A DNA stretch of 64,000 bases from a virus (lineage: Duplodnaviria > Caudoviricetes). Below are positions 3,116-50,035 of this stretch, piece by piece. Below the pieces are notes generated by a model, which was not told the origin of the DNA, made no database searches, and saw only the letters and a program-made list of their open reading frames with translations. Position numbers and translations under genes: made by a program. Location of the stretch: IMG/VR virus record IMGVR_UViG_3300037439_000217, positions 1,779 to 65,778 of that record, one strand, 5' to 3'. Numbering within the stretch: the first letter of the stretch is position 1; every line of letters begins with the position of its first letter.

Positions 3116-3744
3116 CCGATCGTGTCTCGGCACACGGCCGTAGCTACCTGATCCGAGCGCCTAACCCGATCGCACACTTCACGCGTCTCGGAGATCCGTA
3201 CGAGCAGCCGCTGCTCGAGCAGATCTATGCGCAAGGTTTCGCCGGAACCGCGGTCGACGTCGGCGCTCACGTCGGCAACCACACGCTCTGGCTGGCTGCG
3301 ATCTGCGGGCTTAAGGTGGATGCGATCGAACCTGTGCTGCACCGCGAGCTTCGAGACAACGTCGAGTTGAACCGACTACAGGACGTCGTGCGTGTACACC
3401 CGTTCGCTCTCGGCGAACGTTCGGGCACGGCGCATCACACCGGTCCGTTCGGACGACTCGCCGTCGGTGACGGTGCGATCGAGGTGCGACGCCTCGATGA
3501 CCTTGATCTGCGCGACGTAAGTGTGATCAAGATCGACGTGGAAGGTATGGAGGCGGCGGTCATCGCCGGCGGCGAGAGGACGATCCGACGCGATGCGCCG
3601 ATGATCTACGCCGAGGAGTGGCTCGAGCCGCAGTGGCACAGTGACATCGCCGCGGTTCTGGAACCGTGGGGCTACCGAATGACATACAAGTTCGAATCAC
3701 CGGAGGCGTGGACGCCGCTGGGACGATGGGAGTGCCATGGTTAG
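3097..3744 (+). CDS. FkbM-family methyltransferase
   Basis: VDVGAHVGNHT, VDAIEP, FALG, IKIDVEGMEAAVIAG and PMIYAE motifs. Confidence 0.85.
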   Translation: MGIGRVADRVSAHGRSYLIRAPNPIAHFTRLGDPYEQPLLEQIYAQGFAGTAVDVGAHVGNHTLWLAAICGLKVDAIEPVLHRELRDNVELNRLQDVVRVHPFALGERSGTAHHTGPFGRLAVGDGAIEVRRLDDLDLRDVSVIKIDVEGMEAAVIAGGERTIRRDAPMIYAEEWLEPQWHSDIAAVLEPWGYRMTYKFESPEAWTPLGRWECHG

Positions 3745-22039: not shown

Positions 22040-23971
22040 TCACTCTCCAAGGTAGCTGTTCGCGATCGTTTCTGCCTCGCGGTCGAGGTCGTCGGTCGCC
22101 AGTCCGGCGGCTGCACGACGTGCGCGGTCGCGCGTGATCTCGTCCAGACGGTCCATCTTAGCACTAAGATTCGCGACCTGGTCCTCTTCAACCGTTCCCT
22201 CCGCTATCAGATCGATGATCAGCACAGAGTCGTGGATCTCTGAGCCGATCCGATGGACCCGATCCTCCCCCTGGAGGTTGTCCACCATCGACCACGACCT
22301 CTGCAGCCGGATCAGCGTATCGGCGCGCGACAGGTCGATCCCGACCCCGCCTGCCTTGTACGTGAACATGATCACAGGTATCTCGCCGGCCTGAAAGCGC
22401 TCGATGTTGCGGGCGCGGACCTTCTCCGGTACGGTACCTGTAATCAGCGCGTGCGGAATGCTCTCCTTCTCGAGCCGGGCTGCGGCGAGTTCGATCAGCT
22501 TGCGGTGTTCGGCGGCTGCGGCGAGCGGCCTACCGTATCCCTCGCGGACGATCTCCACGAGGTCGTCAACCTTGGTGGACGGTTCGATCGGCTCGACGAG
22601 GAACTCGAGGCCGGAGCCGCGGCAGGTCTGACACATCCCGGCCGGGTTCTGCGGGTCGCGCCGATCACCCTTGCACCGGCGGCACGTGATCGTCTCGACC
22701 TCGGCGTACGACGACGCGAGCTGAAGCAGCCGGGTCTGCGCCGGCAGGTTGCCGCGCGCGACAAGAAGCGAGCCGTCCTCGAGGCGCGTCGCCAGCGCGT
22801 CCTCGATCTCCTTGTAGGCCTTCCGCTGCTTCGGCGTCATCTCCACGGTGCGAATCTGACGGATCTTCGGCGGCAGCTGCGGCAGCACGATGTCCTTGGT
22901 CATCCGACGAAAGTGCGGGTCAAAGAACCGGAAGAACTCGTCCCGAGTGTCGGCCCGCAGACCTGTCACATCAAGTCCGCCGTGCGCGTTCCACGACAGC
23001 ATCGCAAAGCGCTCGAGGAACTTACTCTTGACCGGCATCTCGTCAGGAGTCACCGCGTGCATCGCCGACCACAGGTCACCGGGGTGGTTCGCGATCGGCG
23101 TGCCAGTGGCGCCCCAGCGGCGCAACACCGACGGGTCGTGGAACGTCGCCCAGACGGCGCGTGTCTGCTTCGCCTTAGGATCCTTCACCCGGTGCGCCTC
23201 GTCCAGGATGCACGTCTTGAAGCCGAACCCGTTGAGCTCCTTCTTATGCACCTCGCAGCGAGCTGCGGTCAGCTTCGGGTCGCCGTGCTTCTTGTCACAC
23301 TCGCGGCAGCGTGCCAGCGATATGGATCCGTAGCCGGCGAGCCTCGACAGGAGCCGAACCGACTCGATGTTGACGATCACGAGCGCGGTCGGGTCGCTCT
23401 TGGCCTTCTCGAGAATCTTCCGCCGCTCCGGCGTGCTGCCGGCGAGTACGTAAGGCGTCCCCTCGGGAAACCACTCGCGGGTCTTCGCCTCCCAGTGACG
23501 CTTGACGCCGTTCGGGCAGACGACCAACGCGGGCAGCGCGTCCGGGATGATGCGCAGCGCGGCGAGGATCTGAATGGTCTTACCGGTGCCCATCTCGTCG
23601 GCCAGCAGTGCGCTTCCGGCGATGCGCAGAAACTCGCGGCCGACGACCTGGAACGGGTACAGCCGCTTGTCGTGATCGTTCGCGGTCTCGGGTGCAGACG
23701 AGAACGCGGTCGCCTCGCGGATGGACATCACCGGGTCAACGCGGGTGTGCCGCTCGTTCCACGCCCAGGTGTTCAGGCTCGGTCCGACGTCGAGTCCGCT
23801 ACCGAAGATGCCGCGCAGGACGACGCACGTCGCCCATGTCAGCGGAGCGTGCCAGAACTTGCCTTCGCCGTCCCAGTGGCAGCCAGGAAGCTGTTTGATG
23901 AGGTCCTTCTCCTCCCACCGGGTCTGGATCACAACGCGACCTGTATCCGGCGCGATCTCTGCGTATGCCAT
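22040..23971 (-). CDS. SNF2-family helicase
   Basis: LADEMGTGKT, LDEAH, ATGTP, GGVGIDL and QGEDRVHRIG. Confidence 0.92.
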   Translation of the reverse strand: MAYAEIAPDTGRVVIQTRWEEKDLIKQLPGCHWDGEGKFWHAPLTWATCVVLRGIFGSGLDVGPSLNTWAWNERHTRVDPVMSIREATAFSSAPETANDHDKRLYPFQVVGREFLRIAGSALLADEMGTGKTIQILAALRIIPDALPALVVCPNGVKRHWEAKTREWFPEGTPYVLAGSTPERRKILEKAKSDPTALVIVNIESVRLLSRLAGYGSISLARCRECDKKHGDPKLTAARCEVHKKELNGFGFKTCILDEAHRVKDPKAKQTRAVWATFHDPSVLRRWGATGTPIANHPGDLWSAMHAVTPDEMPVKSKFLERFAMLSWNAHGGLDVTGLRADTRDEFFRFFDPHFRRMTKDIVLPQLPPKIRQIRTVEMTPKQRKAYKEIEDALATRLEDGSLLVARGNLPAQTRLLQLASSYAEVETITCRRCKGDRRDPQNPAGMCQTCRGSGLEFLVEPIEPSTKVDDLVEIVREGYGRPLAAAAEHRKLIELAAARLEKESIPHALITGTVPEKVRARNIERFQAGEIPVIMFTYKAGGVGIDLSRADTLIRLQRSWSMVDNLQGEDRVHRIGSEIHDSVLIIDLIAEGTVEEDQVANLSAKMDRLDEITRDRARRAAAGLATDDLDREAETIANSYLGE

Positions 23972-23974
23972 CGG

Positions 23975-24478
23975 TCAGCTCCTCGTATCCTCATCCTCAG
24001 AGTCAACACTAGCATATCGATGGAGAATGTCAAACATCCTTGGCTCGATGCCTTGCAGCGCGAACAGGGCGTGTGCGGCTGCGTGGTTGGCGTGCTCCAT
24101 ACCCGGCTTGTACCACCCGATCGCACGGAGTAGCTGCGGCGGCGCGAGCCTGACCGCGTCCGCCTTGGATTGCAACACGAGGTGCCCGCCTAGCCGCTCG
24201 CACACATCGCGCACGCTGCCGATGACCTCGAGGGCGTCGGTCTGCTGCGTCTTCTTACCGGTCTCCGGCGTGATCACGAAGCGCTCGCAGGCGATCACGA
24301 GGTCTGTCCAGACCTGCAGCCGCCACTCCACCTCTGTGTGCACCTCGTGTCGCCGAAGATGCATGTGCCTAGCGTCGTTGTTGAGCAGGATCTCGCCCTC
24401 GTCCGGGATCGCGATCGTCGCCAGGAACACGCCGGTGGTCTTCCCTGGGTCGATGCCCATCACGTTGCGTATGATCAT
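23975..24478 (-). CDS. RuvC-like Holliday junction resolvase
   Basis: MGIDPGKTTG, IACERF, and a C-terminal HANHAAAH (atypical last acidic site). Confidence 0.6.
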   Translation of the reverse strand: MIIRNVMGIDPGKTTGVFLATIAIPDEGEILLNNDARHMHLRRHEVHTEVEWRLQVWTDLVIACERFVITPETGKKTQQTDALEVIGSVRDVCERLGGHLVLQSKADAVRLAPPQLLRAIGWYKPGMEHANHAAAHALFALQGIEPRMFDILHRYASVDSEDEDTRS

Positions 24479-47553: not shown

Positions 47554-48288
47554 GTGACCAAGCTCAACCAGCTCCTGGCGATCGAGAAGGGCGCGCGGCA
47601 GCATCACACCGCGGCCGTGACCGACGCCTACCATTCGCTGCAGAAGGGCGCGCTGCTCGACGGCATCTCCCGGACCTACCGGCCCAAGGACGACGAGGGC
47701 GATCGGCTGCCGCCCGAGTCGAAGCGCGTGCAGCTGACCGTTCGGGACGCGCTGGCCGGTGTCCGCGAGCCGTGGGGTCGCCTGATGGATGTCAACCTGG
47801 AGAAGGACGACACCAACACGCGCGCCCGCGCCGACGTGGTCGTGGACGGCGAGACGCTGCTTCAGGACGTGCCGGCGACGTACCTGCTCTTCCTGGAGAA
47901 GCAGCTCACCGACCTGCACACGCTGGTCTCGAAGCTGCCGCGGCTGGACCCGGCCGAGACCTGGCACTGGGATCCGAACGCCGGCGCGTACGCGACCGAG
48001 TCCGTCGAAACCCACCGCTCGGTCAAGGTGCCGCGGGCGCACGTCCTCTACGAGGCGACGCGCGAGCACCCCGCGCAGGTCCGGGCGTACGAGGAGACCG
48101 AGGTCGTCGGGTACTGGACCCAGGTCAAGTTCTCCGGTGCGGTCCCGGCCGACGAGGCCGACGCCATGCTGGACCGCGTGCGTCGGCTGCGGGACGCCGT
48201 GAAGCAGGCGCGTGAGCAGGCGAACCTCGCCGAGGTCGCTCCGCATCGCGGCACCGGTGCCACGATTCTCGACTACGTCCTCGGCTGA
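47554..48288 (+). CDS. conserved bacterial hypothetical protein (MTKLNQLLAIEK family)
   Basis: KLNQLLAIEKG, VPATYLLFLEKQL, LYEAT..HPAQV and AREQAN; recognised as a widespread uncharacterised family. Confidence 0.7.
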   Translation: MTKLNQLLAIEKGARQHHTAAVTDAYHSLQKGALLDGISRTYRPKDDEGDRLPPESKRVQLTVRDALAGVREPWGRLMDVNLEKDDTNTRARADVVVDGETLLQDVPATYLLFLEKQLTDLHTLVSKLPRLDPAETWHWDPNAGAYATESVETHRSVKVPRAHVLYEATREHPAQVRAYEETEVVGYWTQVKFSGAVPADEADAMLDRVRRLRDAVKQAREQANLAEVAPHRGTGATILDYVLG

Positions 48289-48371
48289 CCTGGTAGGGTA
48301 GTCGCCGAGGGTTCGACGCAGGGGACCTTCCGTTCCTCCCGGGGTGATGAGCCTCGGGAGGAACACCCCCG

Positions 48372-48581
48372 ATGAGAGATGAGGATCTAATGATCAAGCG
48401 TCTGATCGCCGCCACCGCACTCGTGCTCGTCACCTTCGGTGGCGCCGCACCCATCGCCGCCGCCGACCCAGTCTTCGGTCCCGGAGCGGGACAAGGAGGC
48501 GGCAACAACGAGCCTCATGAGAACTCTGGCACGAGGTGTCACCCGCCGGGCCAGACCAGCGAATCGCCCGAATGCAAGTAG
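48372..48581 (+). CDS. small secreted peptide
   Basis: Signal peptide ending AAA|DP; two Cys in the mature part. Confidence 0.55.
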   Translation: MRDEDLMIKRLIAATALVLVTFGGAAPIAAADPVFGPGAGQGGGNNEPHENSGTRCHPPGQTSESPECK

Positions 48582-48783
48582 GGCGTCACAAGACCACAAC
48601 TCCATAGAGATCACGCGACGCAAAGCTCCCACCGCGTTCTCGATCGGCGAGGGCACCGGCCCCGTCGGGTCTTCGTGCCCCCCACGATGACCTGGCGCTT
48701 TCGCCGGCTCCTTTTCTTCCCCCCGAAGTGAGTGAGTTACACGAGGCGCGGTGGGCCAAGGCTCCCCACAGGGGAGAGGGCAC

Positions 48784-48926
48784 AAGCTGAAGCTGAGTCT
48801 TAACCTGACGCGTGAGATGACAGTGCGGGTTCGATCCCCGCCCCCGGCTCCACGTGCCGGGGTAGCCCAACACGGTAGAGGCACATTCCCGCACTCAAGG
48901 TGAGATCTCTCGCCCCAGTCTGAGCC
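48784..48926 (+). ncRNA. circularly permuted tRNA-like RNA 1 (YrlA-like)
   Basis: T arm GCGGG-TTCGATC-CCCGC (48825-48841), acceptor hairpin CCCCGGC-TCCACGT-GCCGGGG (48842-48862), then D arm TAGCCCAACACGGTAGAGGC; the flanks form an interrupted helix. Ends are approximate. Confidence 0.7.
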
Positions 48927-48936
48927 TGATACGTTC

Positions 48937-49077
48937 GGTCGCCGGATCAACCGGTCGCGATCGCGTTTCCGAAGACGTAGGTTCGAATCCTTCCGGCGCC
49001 TCCACGTGGCGCCGTGGTGCAGCGGCAGCACGTCGGGACTAAGATCATTAGACGCGACCTTAAACGCCGTCGGCGAC
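48937..49077 (+). ncRNA. circularly permuted tRNA-like RNA 2 (YrlA-like)
   Basis: T arm GTAGG-TTCGAAT-CCTTC (48977-48993), acceptor hairpin CGGCGCC-TCCACGT-GGCGCCG (48994-49014), D arm GTGC-AGCGGCA-GCAC; closing helices TCCGA/TCGGG, GGTCGCG/CGCGACC and GTCGCCG/CGGCGAC. Confidence 0.75.
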
Positions 49078-49089
49078 GTCGGGACGACC

Positions 49090-49183
49090 TACACGGTTTG
49101 CCTAGCTTGGCCTAAGGCGCAACCCTTCAGAGGTTGTGGCCGGCTCGCGCCGGCCATCCCGGGTTCGAATCCCGGTCGTGTGA
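49090..49183 (+). tRNA. type II tRNA with UCA anticodon (opal suppressor / allo-tRNA-like)
   Basis: D arm GCCT-AGCTTGGCCTA-AGGC, anticodon arm CAACC-CTTCAGA-GGTTG, 8-bp variable stem, T arm CCGGG-TTCGAAT-CCCGG, acceptor TACACGG/TCGTGTG, A73, no encoded CCA. Confidence 0.7.
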
Positions 49184-49188
49184 TCACA

Positions 49189-49221
49189 GGAGGGGCTCAC
49201 CAGGGTAGGTGGGCCCCTCCG
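49189..49221 (+). terminator. hairpin closing the ncRNA cluster
   Basis: GGAGGGGCTCACC / GGTGGGCCCCTCC, 13-bp stem with one G-U pair. Confidence 0.6.
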
Positions 49222-49300
49222 CTTGTGTAAGGACAAAGTCGCAGGTAGACGGGTTGTGCTATCGTCTTTGCATCTCTTGTCCATAGGAGGAAGGACGATC

Positions 49301-50035
49301 ATGTACCAGCCCCGACATCGCAGGACGGTTCGCCGTCACACCTGGGGCCGCCGCGCGGCACAGTCCGCGCTCGGCGGCCTCGTGCTCGTCGTGGGACTCG
49401 CAACGGTCGCGAACGCGCACACCAACTACACGGTGAGGCCGGGCGACACGCTCTCCGAGATCGCCGCCGCGAACGGGACCACGTGGCAGCAGGTCTACGA
49501 GCTGAACAAGGACATCATCGACGATCCGAACCTGATCTTCCCGGACCAGGTGCTGGTGACCAGCTTGGAGGGGTCCGAGCCCGCGCGCTCCGGTTCGAAG
49601 GCGGATCGCTCGGGCGGAAGCAGGCAGCAGGTCGACTCGATCGCTGCGGCGCGCGGCGGCATCACGCGCCCTGCCACCGGCTCGGTGACGAGCCACTACG
49701 GGTACCGCACTCACCCGATCACCGGCGTGTACAAGCTGCACACCGGCACGGACTTCTCATACGGCAACGGCAACGCGTACGCCGCGGCGGCCGGGCGCGT
49801 CTCGATCGAGCACCCCGAGTGGGCCGGCAACCTGGTGATCGTCGATCACGGTGGCGGGGTCCAGACGCGGTACGCGCACCTGGCCAGCGTGTCCGTGTCA
49901 AGCGGACAGCAGGTCGACTCCGGCGATGTCGTGGGACGGATCGGTGAGCGCGGACTCGCGACCGGACCGCACCTGCACTTCGAGGTCCTGCTGAGCGGCG
50001 ACTTCAGCGACCCGCTCGCGTGGCTCGGCGGGTAG
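49301..50035 (+). CDS. secreted LysM plus M23 metallo-endopeptidase
   Basis: Signal/TM segment, YTVRPGDTLSEIA...IFPDQVL (LysM), HTGTDF (HxxxD), TRYAHL and GPHLHFEV (HxH). Confidence 0.9.
   Translation: MYQPRHRRTVRRHTWGRRAAQSALGGLVLVVGLATVANAHTNYTVRPGDTLSEIAAANGTTWQQVYELNKDIIDDPNLIFPDQVLVTSLEGSEPARSGSKADRSGGSRQQVDSIAAARGGITRPATGSVTSHYGYRTHPITGVYKLHTGTDFSYGNGNAYAAAAGRVSIEHPEWAGNLVIVDHGGGVQTRYAHLASVSVSSGQQVDSGDVVGRIGERGLATGPHLHFEVLLSGDFSDPLAWLGG

What the first reader, a model, noticed from the sequence alone, without database searches (positions are those of the whole stretch)
49090..49183. tRNA with UCA anticodon and long variable arm that is not a canonical tRNA-Sec
Seen: anticodon loop CT-TCA-GA (reads UGA), 4-bp D stem with an 11-nt loop, 8-bp variable stem and A73. 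It folds either as 7/5 with a 3-nt connector or as 8/4. Established: bacterial tRNA-Sec is 8/5 with a 6-bp D stem and G73, whereas 8/4 long-arm tRNAs have been described as allo-tRNAs, and A73 with a long arm suggests Leu or Tyr charging. Many genes here end in TGA within ATGA/GTGA overlaps, so UGA is not reassigned. Inference: an opal suppressor for regulated read-through, or a decoy tRNA. The acceptor stem has 2-3 G-U pairs, so decay is possible.
Basis: partly seen in the sequence, partly recalled or inferred. Interest (0 to 1): 0.8.

Follow-up and report, generated by a model that had tools for sequence, protein, structure and literature searches.

The report
Opal-anticodon tRNA in phage tRNA-mimic operon
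A soil phage that uses UGA as its normal stop codon carries an intact, long-armed tRNA gene whose anticodon reads UGA; the gene is the last element of a conserved cluster of tRNA look-alike RNAs, so it is probably a specialised RNA of that cluster, or at most a weak stop-codon suppressor, not a selenocysteine tRNA or a sign of an altered genetic code.

Summary
Window 49090-49183 (+) is a 94-nt class II cloverleaf with anticodon UCA (ARAGORN; Rfam tRNA 33.4 bits, cut-off 29). A second metagenome contig is identical over 611 nt, so an anticodon sequencing error is unlikely.

It is not tRNA-Sec. Real actinobacterial selC genes score 77-86 bits and have a 6-bp D stem with a tetraloop; this element has neither. 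It fits the allo-tRNA definition only partly.

UGA is not reassigned: 74 of 109 predicted genes end in TGA, 31 of them in ATGA/GTGA overlaps.

The new point is context. The tRNA is the last RNA of a conserved unit: DUF7873 gene, two circularly permuted YrlA-like tRNA mimics, a cloverleaf, and a hairpin with a GGGTA loop. The unit occurs in many actinophages and in a Streptosporangium chromosome, and no Ro60 was found in six phage records searched. In relatives the cloverleaf slot holds different elements. Anticodon triplets vary on conserved scaffolds, some have only a 4-bp acceptor stem, and one unrelated class II element (L148) also carries UCA.

Best reading: a specialised tRNA-shaped cargo of this operon, at most a weak opal suppressor. 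Charging and decoding are untested.

The scan has not reported this tRNA type on other DNA.

The parts
49090..49183 (+). Class II tRNA-shaped gene, anticodon UCA, discriminator A, no encoded CCA
   Evidence: ARAGORN; Rfam RF00005 at 33.4 bits; identical in a second contig
49127..49129 (+). Anticodon TCA within the 7-nt loop CTTCAGA (49125-49131)
   Evidence: Sequence; ARAGORN anticodon at position 38
49137..49158 (+). Long variable arm: 7-8 bp GC-rich stem with 4-nt loop UCGC; not a copy of an anticodon hairpin
   Evidence: Sequence and ARAGORN drawing
49189..49220 (+). 13-bp GC hairpin with loop CCAGGGTAGG that closes the RNA unit; hairpins with a GGGTA loop found in 26 of 94 DUF7873 loci (at least 24 convincing)
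   Evidence: Hairpin search
48954..49061 (+). YrlA-like circularly permuted tRNA mimic, module 2 (T arm, 3' acceptor strand, U-CCA, CGU linker, 5' acceptor strand, D arm)
   Evidence: Rfam RF02553 at 29.9 bits, below gathering 69, full model length; same layout in relatives
48784..48900 (+).
47554..48288 (+). DUF7873 protein gene that heads the unit in every related locus
   Evidence: Pfam PF25283, E 1e-100; synteny in phages and a bacterium
48390..48581 (+). Small ORF with a signal-peptide-like N-terminus between DUF7873 and the RNAs, followed by a terminator-like hairpin at 48692-48707; not found in relatives
   Evidence: ORF list; gene called on L254; terminator scan

Best explanation
This is a real, intact tRNA-shaped gene with a Ser-type class II core and anticodon UCA. 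It is neither tRNA-Sec nor a marker of a changed genetic code. It is the last RNA of a conserved operon-like unit: DUF7873 gene, two circularly permuted YrlA-like tRNA mimics, a cloverleaf, and a GGGTA-loop hairpin. Shown here: the anatomy, the synteny, the variable content of the cloverleaf slot, and the use of UGA as the main stop codon. Inferred: the unit is transcribed as one RNA, and RNase P, 3' trimming and CCA addition release the cloverleaf. I read it as a specialised cargo RNA of this tRNA-mimic system whose anticodon triplet is the variable, specificity-giving part. It is not a housekeeping decoder. Unlike several relatives it has a full 7-8 bp acceptor stem, so it may be charged; Ser fits the core best, and Leu is possible through A73. 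If charged, it would cause only low-level UGA read-through. My odds: about 0.45 that it does not decode (mimic, decoy or substrate acting with DUF7873 and the Y-like RNAs), about 0.35-0.4 that it is a weak functional opal suppressor, and about 0.15 that it is a neutral relic.
For: The tRNA is real and reproducible. The order DUF7873, then a YrlA-like RNA (27-39 bits), then a cloverleaf recurs in IMG/VR contigs L002, L003, L004, L006 and L148 and in Logan contigs L061, L062 and L064. In isolates GodonK, Racecar and NiceHouse and in a Streptosporangium chromosome (L068) the unit has no cloverleaf before its closing hairpin. The GGGTA-loop hairpin closes the unit in at least 24 loci. Slot cloverleafs keep C32-U33 and R37-A38, and within a scaffold the anticodon stem is identical, but the triplet differs: ATT/GCT/TAA/GCG on one scaffold and TGT/GTG/CTT on another. 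The second scaffold has a conserved 4-bp acceptor stem that could not act as a normal acceptor end. A second class II element, unrelated in sequence, with UCA, A73, an 8-bp acceptor stem and a UU connector sits in the same slot in L148. It is the only stop anticodon among the 222 ARAGORN tRNAs found in those 80 loci. TGA ends 74 of 109 genes here and 20 of 35 in the L148 phage. Read-through would add a median of 27 codons, and the next stop would again be TGA in 56 cases. No gene needs read-through: the four in-frame TGA junctions are adjacent genes, belonging to different PHROG families where they have any match.
Against: No expression, processing or charging data exist. All YrlA hits are below Rfam's gathering score. 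Many relatives carry apparently ordinary tRNAs in or near the slot, such as Lys-UUU at 71.7 bits in L062. The simplest reading is therefore 'a phage tRNA gene parked in a tRNA-like cluster', which favours real decoding. This element has every core tRNA feature and a full acceptor stem. It has no sequence homolog, so there is no covariation support. Given that the window was picked for its UCA, one more UCA among about 11 slot elements has a chance probability of roughly 0.05-0.16. The contig lacks most structural genes, so a late gene with an in-frame UGA cannot be excluded. DUF7873 has no recognisable fold or known function.
Confidence: 0.5

Rival explanations
1. It is a bona fide opal suppressor. 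The RNA is processed, charged (Ser or Leu) and delivered by EF-Tu, and it inserts an amino acid at UGA at low efficiency. This would give regulated C-terminal extensions of phage or host proteins, or disturb host termination.
For: All core tRNA positions are intact and the acceptor stem is 7-8 bp. It passes Rfam's tRNA threshold. The slot holds ordinary tRNAs in some relatives. UCA recurs in L148. Allo-tRNAs with odd acceptor/T geometry were active suppressors in E. coli (PMC5389517). The anticodon is reproducible.
Against: UGA is the stop codon of 68% of the phage's genes, extensions would be long, and the next stop is usually UGA too. I found no read-through target. Identity elements are mixed: a Ser-type core without G1-C72, G2-C71 or G73, and A73 without a Leu-type D arm. 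U1.G72 is an unusual end pair. The analogous L148 element has G33 and a non-canonical T loop, which are poor for decoding.
Confidence: 0.35
2. It is a decaying or neutral remnant of a phage tRNA-Ser gene (for example Ser-UGA, one base away) whose anticodon and acceptor end have mutated, with no present function.
For: The D arm and loop context are Ser-type. The acceptor stem has 2-3 G.U pairs and a non-Ser discriminator. The Rfam score (33.4 bits) is at the low end compared with 36-54 bits for class II tRNAs in related phages. No sequence homolog was found in IMG/VR, INPHARED or metagenome pattern scans.
Against: U8, A14, G15-C48, G18G19, A21, G26, U33, R37, G53-C61 and the TTCGAAT loop are all intact, and the variable stem is a perfect 7 bp. 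An independent UCA class II element occupies the same slot in L148. TCA and TTA codons are rare in this phage (2.5 and 0.8 per 1000), so there is no obvious parental need.
Confidence: 0.13
3. It is a selenocysteine tRNA (selC-like), or the decoder of a TGA-recoded phage genome.
For: ARAGORN labels it tRNA-SeC. It has a UCA anticodon, a long variable arm and a possible 8-bp acceptor stem. tRNA-Sec is common in Actinomycetota.
Against: The acceptor branch is 12 bp, not 13. The D stem is 4 bp with an 11-nt loop, not 6 bp with a tetraloop. It has A73, and it scores below 33.4 bits on the Sec model (gathering 47), against 77-86 bits for real actinobacterial selC genes. TGA ends 74 of 109 genes and the ORFs are not fragmented. 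The variable arm is not an anticodon-hairpin copy like those reported for recoded gut phages.
Confidence: 0.02

Closest known systems
Allo-tRNAs, (8/4) phage tRNA-Ser and 'polycistrons of irregular tRNAs' (Mukai et al., NAR 2017, PMC5389517)
   Same: Long variable arm. Anticodons do not match the body, stop anticodons included. A 12-bp acceptor branch that can be drawn as 8/4. Found in phages and mobile contexts. Anticodons are diverse on a conserved scaffold. Some members are translationally active and others inactive or 'charged but not used'.
   Different: The D arm is an ordinary class II type (4 bp, 11-nt loop), not Sec-like. The discriminator is A73, not G73/U73. The 7/5 fold is the more stable one. 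The genomic partner is DUF7873 plus YrlA-like RNAs, not a toxin-antitoxin system. The host phylum is probably Actinomycetota.
YrlA / bacterial Y RNA loci (Chen et al., RNA 2014, PMC4201824; Rfam RF02553)
   Same: The two RNAs upstream have the YrlA tRNA-like layout (T arm, closed acceptor-like stem, D arm), lie in tandem on one strand next to a protein gene, and occur in actinobacteria and their phages.
   Different: YrlA was defined by its adjacency to Ro60 (TROVE). No TROVE gene was found in this contig or in five related phage records; the neighbour is DUF7873 instead. All hits are below the Rfam gathering score. The passages of that paper I searched mention no cloverleaf with an anticodon arm in YrlA loci.
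Suppressor tRNA(UCA) of TGA-recoded phages
   Same: A phage-encoded tRNA with UCA anticodon and a class II-like outline.
   Different: Those phages have many in-frame TGA codons, and per those unchecked notes the extra arm copies the Trp anticodon hairpin. Here TGA is the main stop codon and the variable arm has a 4-nt loop.
Bacterial tRNA-Sec (Rfam RF01852)
   Same: UCA anticodon and a long variable arm.
   Different: It fails the 13-bp branch, the D-arm type, G73 and the score threshold.
Phage tRNAs that replace host tRNAs cut by anticodon nucleases (van den Berg et al., eLife 2023, PMC10264068)
   Same: One or a few tRNA genes in actinophages, with variation centred on the anticodon loop. 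Mycobacterial VapC toxins are reported there to cut Ser tRNAs at GA in the anticodon.
   Different: A UCA anticodon replaces no sense decoder. This link is only a lead for a decoy role.

Membership tests
Canonical tRNA (Rfam RF00005) | Score at or above the gathering threshold of 29 bits, with a full-length cloverleaf | tested here: met
   33.4 bits, model positions 1-71; ARAGORN call
Canonical tRNA (Rfam RF00005) | Conserved core positions: U8, A14, G18G19, A21, U33, purine 37, G53-C61 and a T-loop of the TTCRANN type | tested here: met
   Read from the sequence. U8 fits only in the 8/4 register; the 7/5 register has a 3-nt connector
Bacterial tRNA-Sec (RF01852) | 13-bp acceptor branch (8/5) | tested here: not met
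   12 bp in either register, 7/5 or 8/4
Bacterial tRNA-Sec (RF01852) | 6-bp D stem with a 4-nt loop | tested here: not met
   4-bp stem with an 11-nt loop. The 25 real actinobacterial selC genes I retrieved all have the long stem and tetraloop (5 of the 25 come from unpublished genomes, and the result holds for the other 20)
Bacterial tRNA-Sec (RF01852) | Score at or above the gathering threshold of 47 bits; G73 | tested here: not met
   No Sec-model hit outranked the 33.4-bit tRNA hit, against 77-86 bits for real selC. The discriminator is A in the two best registers
Allo-tRNA (Mukai et al. 2017) | 12-bp acceptor branch arranged as 8/4 or 9/3 | tested here: inconclusive
   8/4 is possible and gives a normal UU connector, as in L148, but it is 4 kcal/mol less stable than 7/5
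Allo-tRNA (Mukai et al. 2017) | Sec-like D arm (long stem, tetraloop) | tested here: not met
   Ser-type D arm; definition taken from PMC5389517
Allo-tRNA (Mukai et al. 2017) | Long variable arm with discriminator G73 or U73 | tested here: not met
   The long arm is present, but the discriminator is A73 in the two best registers
tRNA-Ser | Class II core with a Ser-type D arm and a long variable arm | tested here: met
   The D-arm pattern falls in tRNA-Ser genes of Chloroflexota; alignment. This comparison is partly circular, because those genes were fetched by the D-arm pattern
tRNA-Ser | Acceptor identity: G73 and G-C pairs at 1-72 and 2-71 (established for E. coli SerRS; from memory) | tested here: not met
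   U1.G72, A2-U71, A73
tRNA-Leu (bacterial) | A73 with a Leu-type D arm and A15-U48 tertiary pair (from memory) | tested here: inconclusive
   A73 is present, but the D arm is Ser-like and 15-48 is G-C. No isotype-specific model was available
Decoder tRNA of a stop-codon-recoded phage | Many in-frame copies of the cognate stop codon in phage genes | tested here: not met
   TGA ends 74 of 109 genes. The only 4 in-frame junctions are separate adjacent genes. Caveat: most structural genes are absent from the contig
DUF7873 / YrlA-like RNA unit (defined here by synteny) | Same strand, downstream of DUF7873 and the permuted tRNA mimics, upstream of the GGGTA-loop hairpin | tested here: met
   Window layout; the same order in L002, L003, L006, L061, L064 and L148
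YrlA (RF02553) locus in the strict sense | Adjacent Ro60/TROVE gene; score at or above 69 bits | tested here: not met
   No TROVE match in the contig or in 5 related phage records; scores are 22.7-39.4 bits

The most novel reading that the evidence does not exclude
The DUF7873 / Y-like RNA unit is a widespread tRNA-directed system of phages and actinobacteria that works without Ro60. Its last slot carries a tRNA-shaped RNA with an exchangeable anticodon triplet as its specificity element. The UCA versions, found here and in L148, would target UGA decoding or tRNA-Sec-type partners, for example by competing with RF2 at the host's main stop codon or by acting as decoys for an anticodon-reading nuclease or enzyme, and not by ordinary suppression.
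Probability: 0.2. Interest if true: 0.85.

Novelty: new variant of a known kind. Interest (0 to 1): 0.6.

Why it matters
Stop-anticodon tRNAs in phages are mostly discussed as tools of genetic-code switching. This one sits in an actinophage that plainly keeps UGA as its main stop codon. It is physically tied to a conserved set of tRNA mimics and a large protein family of unknown function (more than 5,600 homologs) that is not linked to Ro60. If the cloverleaf slot carries anticodon-programmable tRNA-like RNAs, that would point to a new way for phages to act on, or hide from, tRNA-reading machinery. It would also give DUF7873 and the Ro60-less Y-like RNAs a testable function. If the RNA is simply a weak suppressor, it would be an example of tolerated opal suppression in a phage and host that use UGA heavily.

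Tried and rejected
1. Searches for sequence homologs of the tRNA found none. These were an exact anticodon-arm 23-mer in IMG/VR, D-arm plus UCA (three hits, all inside a coding sequence), a degenerate D-arm in IMG/VR, the exact D-arm in metagenomes, and blastn against INPHARED (T-arm matches only).

2. The D-arm pattern in 185,579 species genomes found mostly non-tRNA chance matches plus Chloroflexota tRNA-Ser genes.

3. BLAST of the tRNA against a Mycobacterium and a Streptomyces genome gave only short chance matches.

4. The downstream LysM-M23 peptidase found no close phage relative in IMG/VR.

The three hits next to DUF7873 were artefacts of Y-like module 1.

6. Eighty metagenome DUF7873 loci held no stop-anticodon tRNA.

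7. ARAGORN calls of long 'tRNAs' in L107, L196 and L215 are false positives built on Y-like module 1, and those in L102 and L087 are doubtful, so I did not count them.

8. The DUF7873 fold gave no informative match. Foldseek found nothing at E of 0.001 or below, and VIA-align found only helical-bundle matches at background Z of 6-8.6. No paper mentions DUF7873.

9. The sigma-70 promoter scan found nothing in 48200-49400. This is not informative for an actinobacterial host.

10. The 'variable arm copies an anticodon hairpin' model from this scan's notes on recoded gut phages does not fit the window, whose variable-arm loop is 4 nt.

11. PHROG annotation of in-frame TGA gene pairs in the window and in the L148 phage gave no sign of a fused product.

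I redid it from coordinates.

Full report
**The observation.** ARAGORN finds exactly one tRNA in the window, at 49090-49183 on the + strand, with anticodon tca, and labels it tRNA-SeC. Rfam's general tRNA model matches 49091-49182 at 33.4 bits, above its 29-bit gathering score. The sequence and ARAGORN's drawing show these features:
- a 7-bp acceptor stem with U1.G72 and G7.U66;
- a 3-nt connector;
- a 4-bp D stem with an 11-nt loop containing GG;
- a 5-6 bp anticodon stem with loop CU-UCA-GA;
- a variable arm with a perfect 7-bp GC stem (8 bp with a U-A pair) and loop UCGC;
- a 5-bp T stem with loop TTCGAAT;
- discriminator A, and no encoded CCA.

An 8/4 register is possible and restores a normal 2-nt UU connector. 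A second contig, JGI Ga0395786_0015558 (L254), is 100% identical over window 48700-49310, including the anticodon. A sequencing error at the anticodon is therefore unlikely.

**What kind of genome this is.** The window is bases 1779-65778 of a 65.8-kb IMG/VR viral contig that CheckV estimates to be 87% complete. GC content is 65%. It encodes a primase-polymerase, DNA polymerase, helicase, exonuclease, large terminase and a LysM-M23 peptidase. The nearest isolates by the DUF7873 gene are Gordonia, Arthrobacter and Rhodococcus phages, so the host is probably an actinobacterium. The contig begins inside a tail gene and ends shortly after the terminase, so most structural genes are missing.

**It is not tRNA-Sec.** I retrieved tRNA-Sec genes from 151 Actinomycetota genomes. 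The 25 best hits (77-86 bits on RF01852) are all UCA tRNAs of 92-96 nt with an 8-bp acceptor stem, a 6-bp D stem with a tetraloop, and a CU-UCA-AA loop. Five of these 25 loci come from genomes flagged as unpublished (G123, G004, G085, G021, G051). The statement holds for the other 20, and I give no sequence from the flagged ones. The phage element has a 12-bp branch, a Ser-type D arm, A73 and G37, and no Sec-model hit outranked its 33.4-bit tRNA hit.

**It fits the allo-tRNA definition only in part.** The definition in PMC5389517 requires an 8/4 or 9/3 branch, a Sec-like D arm and G73/U73. Here the long arm and the non-cognate anticodon fit, the 8/4 branch is possible but not preferred, and the D arm and discriminator do not fit.

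**Body type.** The D arm, the UU connector, G15-C48 and the loop context CU-NNN-GA match tRNA-Ser genes. The clearest match is to Chloroflexota tRNA-Ser(GGA), but this comparison is partly circular because those genes were fetched by the D-arm pattern. The acceptor end (U1.G72, A2-U71, A73) lacks what is known of Ser identity; this is from memory of the E. coli SerRS literature. The amino-acid identity therefore stays open: Ser by the core, or Leu through A73. Tyr is unlikely because C35 replaces the U35 that TyrRS reads (from memory).

**Genetic code.** A codon-usage gene call gives 109 genes with stops TGA 74, TAG 20 and TAA 15. Four TGA-terminated genes run in frame into a coding ORF. In each case the downstream ORF is the next gene, and where PHROG matches exist the two belong to different families. 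If UGA were read through, the 74 genes would gain a median of 27 codons, and the next stop would again be TGA in 56 cases. An efficient suppressor would therefore be costly. TCA and TTA codons are rare (2.5 and 0.8 per 1000), so a Ser-UGA or Leu-UAA ancestor is not obviously needed either.

**The context.** A sensitive Rfam scan of 48500-49500 gave two sub-threshold YrlA (Y RNA-like) hits just upstream: 48954-49061 (29.9 bits, full model) and 48824-48882 (22.7 bits). By eye both are circularly permuted tRNA mimics. Each has a T arm, a 3' acceptor strand, U-CCA, a CGU linker, a 5' acceptor strand and a D arm. The gene upstream (47554-48288) belongs to DUF7873 (PF25283, E 1e-100).

The order 'DUF7873, then a gene-free gap of roughly 250-950 nt holding YrlA-like RNAs' recurs in several places:
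- Gordonia phages GodonK and Keelan, Arthrobacter phage Racecar and Rhodococcus phage NiceHouse, where the gene sits in or beside tRNA arrays;
- IMG/VR contigs L002-L006;
- the closest relatives at about 60% protein identity, on Logan contigs L061, L062 and L064;
- a Streptosporangium subroseum chromosome, L068.

DUF7873 has more than 5,600 homologs at E of 1e-10 or better. No TROVE/Ro60 gene was found in this contig or in five related phage records, although YrlA was defined by adjacency to Ro60 (PMC4201824). An AlphaFold model of DUF7873 is confident (pLDDT 88.7) but has no informative structural match. No paper mentions the family.

**The slot.** A GC hairpin with a GGGTA-type loop closes the unit (window 49189-49220) and was found in 26 of 94 DUF7873 loci, at least 24 of them convincing. 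Between Y-like module 2 and this hairpin there is either nothing (L068, L074, L078, L118 and others) or one cloverleaf. GodonK, Racecar and NiceHouse also lack a cloverleaf there, but their closing hairpins have a different loop. The cloverleafs are not the same gene from locus to locus:
- One scaffold (L002, L003, L006) has a conserved 4-bp acceptor stem, GTCG/CGAC, whose outer three positions never pair. It carries the anticodons TGT, GTG and CTT.
- A second scaffold (L061, L064, L070, L121) keeps an identical anticodon stem, TCGGT/ACCGA, but carries ATT, GCT, TAA and GCG.
- Loop positions 32, 33, 37 and 38 stay conserved while the triplet changes.
- L062 holds a canonical tRNA-Lys(UUU) at 71.7 bits.

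Among 222 ARAGORN tRNAs in 80 further IMG/VR DUF7873 loci, only one has a stop anticodon, and it sits in this slot. It is L148 3170-3260, 91 nt, class II, with an 8-bp acceptor stem, UU connector, A73 and UCA, and it scores 39 bits on Rfam's tRNA model. It is unrelated in sequence to the window's tRNA. It has G33 and an odd T loop, and its variable arm carries a 7-nt loop, CUUGAAA, that looks like a Ser(UGA) anticodon loop. The L148 phage also uses TGA as its main stop codon, in 20 of 35 genes.

Because the window was chosen for its UCA, the chance of one more UCA among about 11 other slot elements is roughly 0.16 under uniform anticodons, or about 0.05 using the empirical rarity of stop anticodons. 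That is suggestive and not decisive.

**Interpretation.** Anatomy, reproducibility, synteny and code usage are shown here. Co-transcription with the Y-like RNAs is inferred from the shared strand, a terminator-like hairpin upstream at 48692-48707 and the closing hairpin downstream. Release by RNase P, 3' trimming and CCA addition is also inferred.

I read the element as a specialised tRNA-shaped cargo of the DUF7873 / Y-like RNA unit, in which the anticodon triplet is the variable part. Unlike the relatives with a 4-bp acceptor stem, it has a full acceptor stem and may be charged, in which case it would be a weak opal suppressor. My odds are:
- about 0.45 for a non-decoding role (mimic, decoy or substrate);
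- about 0.35-0.4 for a weak functional suppressor;
- about 0.15 for a neutral relic of a tRNA-Ser;
- about 0.02 for tRNA-Sec or recoding.

The report that mycobacterial VapC toxins cut Ser tRNAs at GA in the anticodon (PMC10264068) is only a lead for a decoy role.

**Novelty and limits.** The tRNA is a new variant of known kinds: allo-like or irregular phage tRNAs, and suppressor-type tRNAs. The context may be more novel: a Y-like RNA unit found without Ro60 where I looked, linked to DUF7873, with a cloverleaf slot of variable anticodon.

There are no expression or charging data. The element has no sequence homolog, so covariation cannot be tested. All YrlA hits are below Rfam's threshold. The contig lacks its structural genes. 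Isotype-specific tRNA models were not available.

Noticed in passing
L002 3692-3757; L003 5300-5375; L006 5755-5829; L061 5153-5226; L064 5523-5594; L070 about 3530-3600; L121 about 3597-3675: Cloverleafs in the slot before the GGGTA hairpin share scaffolds (identical anticodon stems, conserved loop positions 32, 33, 37 and 38) but differ in the anticodon triplet: TGT/GTG/CTT on one scaffold and ATT/GCT/TAA/GCG on another. The first scaffold has a conserved 4-bp acceptor stem that cannot be a normal acceptor end.
   Followed up: partly
L148 3170-3260: A second UCA class II element sits in the same slot. It has an 8/5 branch, A73, G33 instead of U33 and T loop UGCAAAU, and its variable arm has a 7-nt loop, CUUGAAA, that resembles a Ser(UGA) anticodon loop.
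   Followed up: partly
window 49189-49220; L002, L003, L061, L064, L068, L070, L078, L118, L141, L148 and others: A GC-rich hairpin of 12-14 bp whose loop contains GGGTA closes the RNA unit in at least 24 DUF7873 loci, in phages and in a bacterium. A conserved loop suggests it is more than a plain terminator.
   Followed up: partly
L068 6736-7380 (Streptosporangium subroseum chromosome, CP109068): DUF7873 followed by two permuted tRNA mimics and the GGGTA hairpin occurs in a bacterial chromosome with no phage genes in the 12.7-kb locus. Module 1 carries an insert of about 100 nt in its acceptor-like loop.
   Followed up: no
L007 3340-3420 (Gordonia phage GodonK, Y-like module 1): The closed acceptor-like stem reads G1-C72, C2-G71, G3.U70, followed by A73-CCA. 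That is the alanine identity set, placed inside a hairpin that has no free 3' end.
   Followed up: no
L007 3735-3810; L008 4187-4261; L064 5086-5159: tRNAs annotated Leu(tag) are only 74-76 nt long and have no long variable arm. This anticodon-body mismatch is shared by several phages that carry DUF7873.
   Followed up: no
L107, L196, L215 (just downstream of DUF7873): ARAGORN reports long 'tRNAs' (Ser-tga, Phe-gaa, Leu-gag) that are false positives built on the T arm and acceptor of Y-like module 1. Automatic annotation of these loci will mislabel them.
   Followed up: yes
window 48390-48581: A small ORF with a signal-peptide-like N-terminus and a Cys-containing tail lies between DUF7873 and the RNA cluster, followed by a terminator-like hairpin at 48692-48707. 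It is called as a gene on L254 and was not seen in relatives.
   Followed up: no
window 49031-49040 and 49076-49085: A direct 10-nt repeat, ACGTCGGGAC, flanks the 3' strand of Y-like module 2 just before the tRNA.
   Followed up: no
window 23975-24478 and 22040-23971 (- strand): A 167-aa gene (phrog_1981) ends in TGA one codon before, and in frame with, the start of a 643-aa helicase gene. This is probably chance, but it is the cleanest place in the window to look for a read-through fusion.
   Followed up: partly
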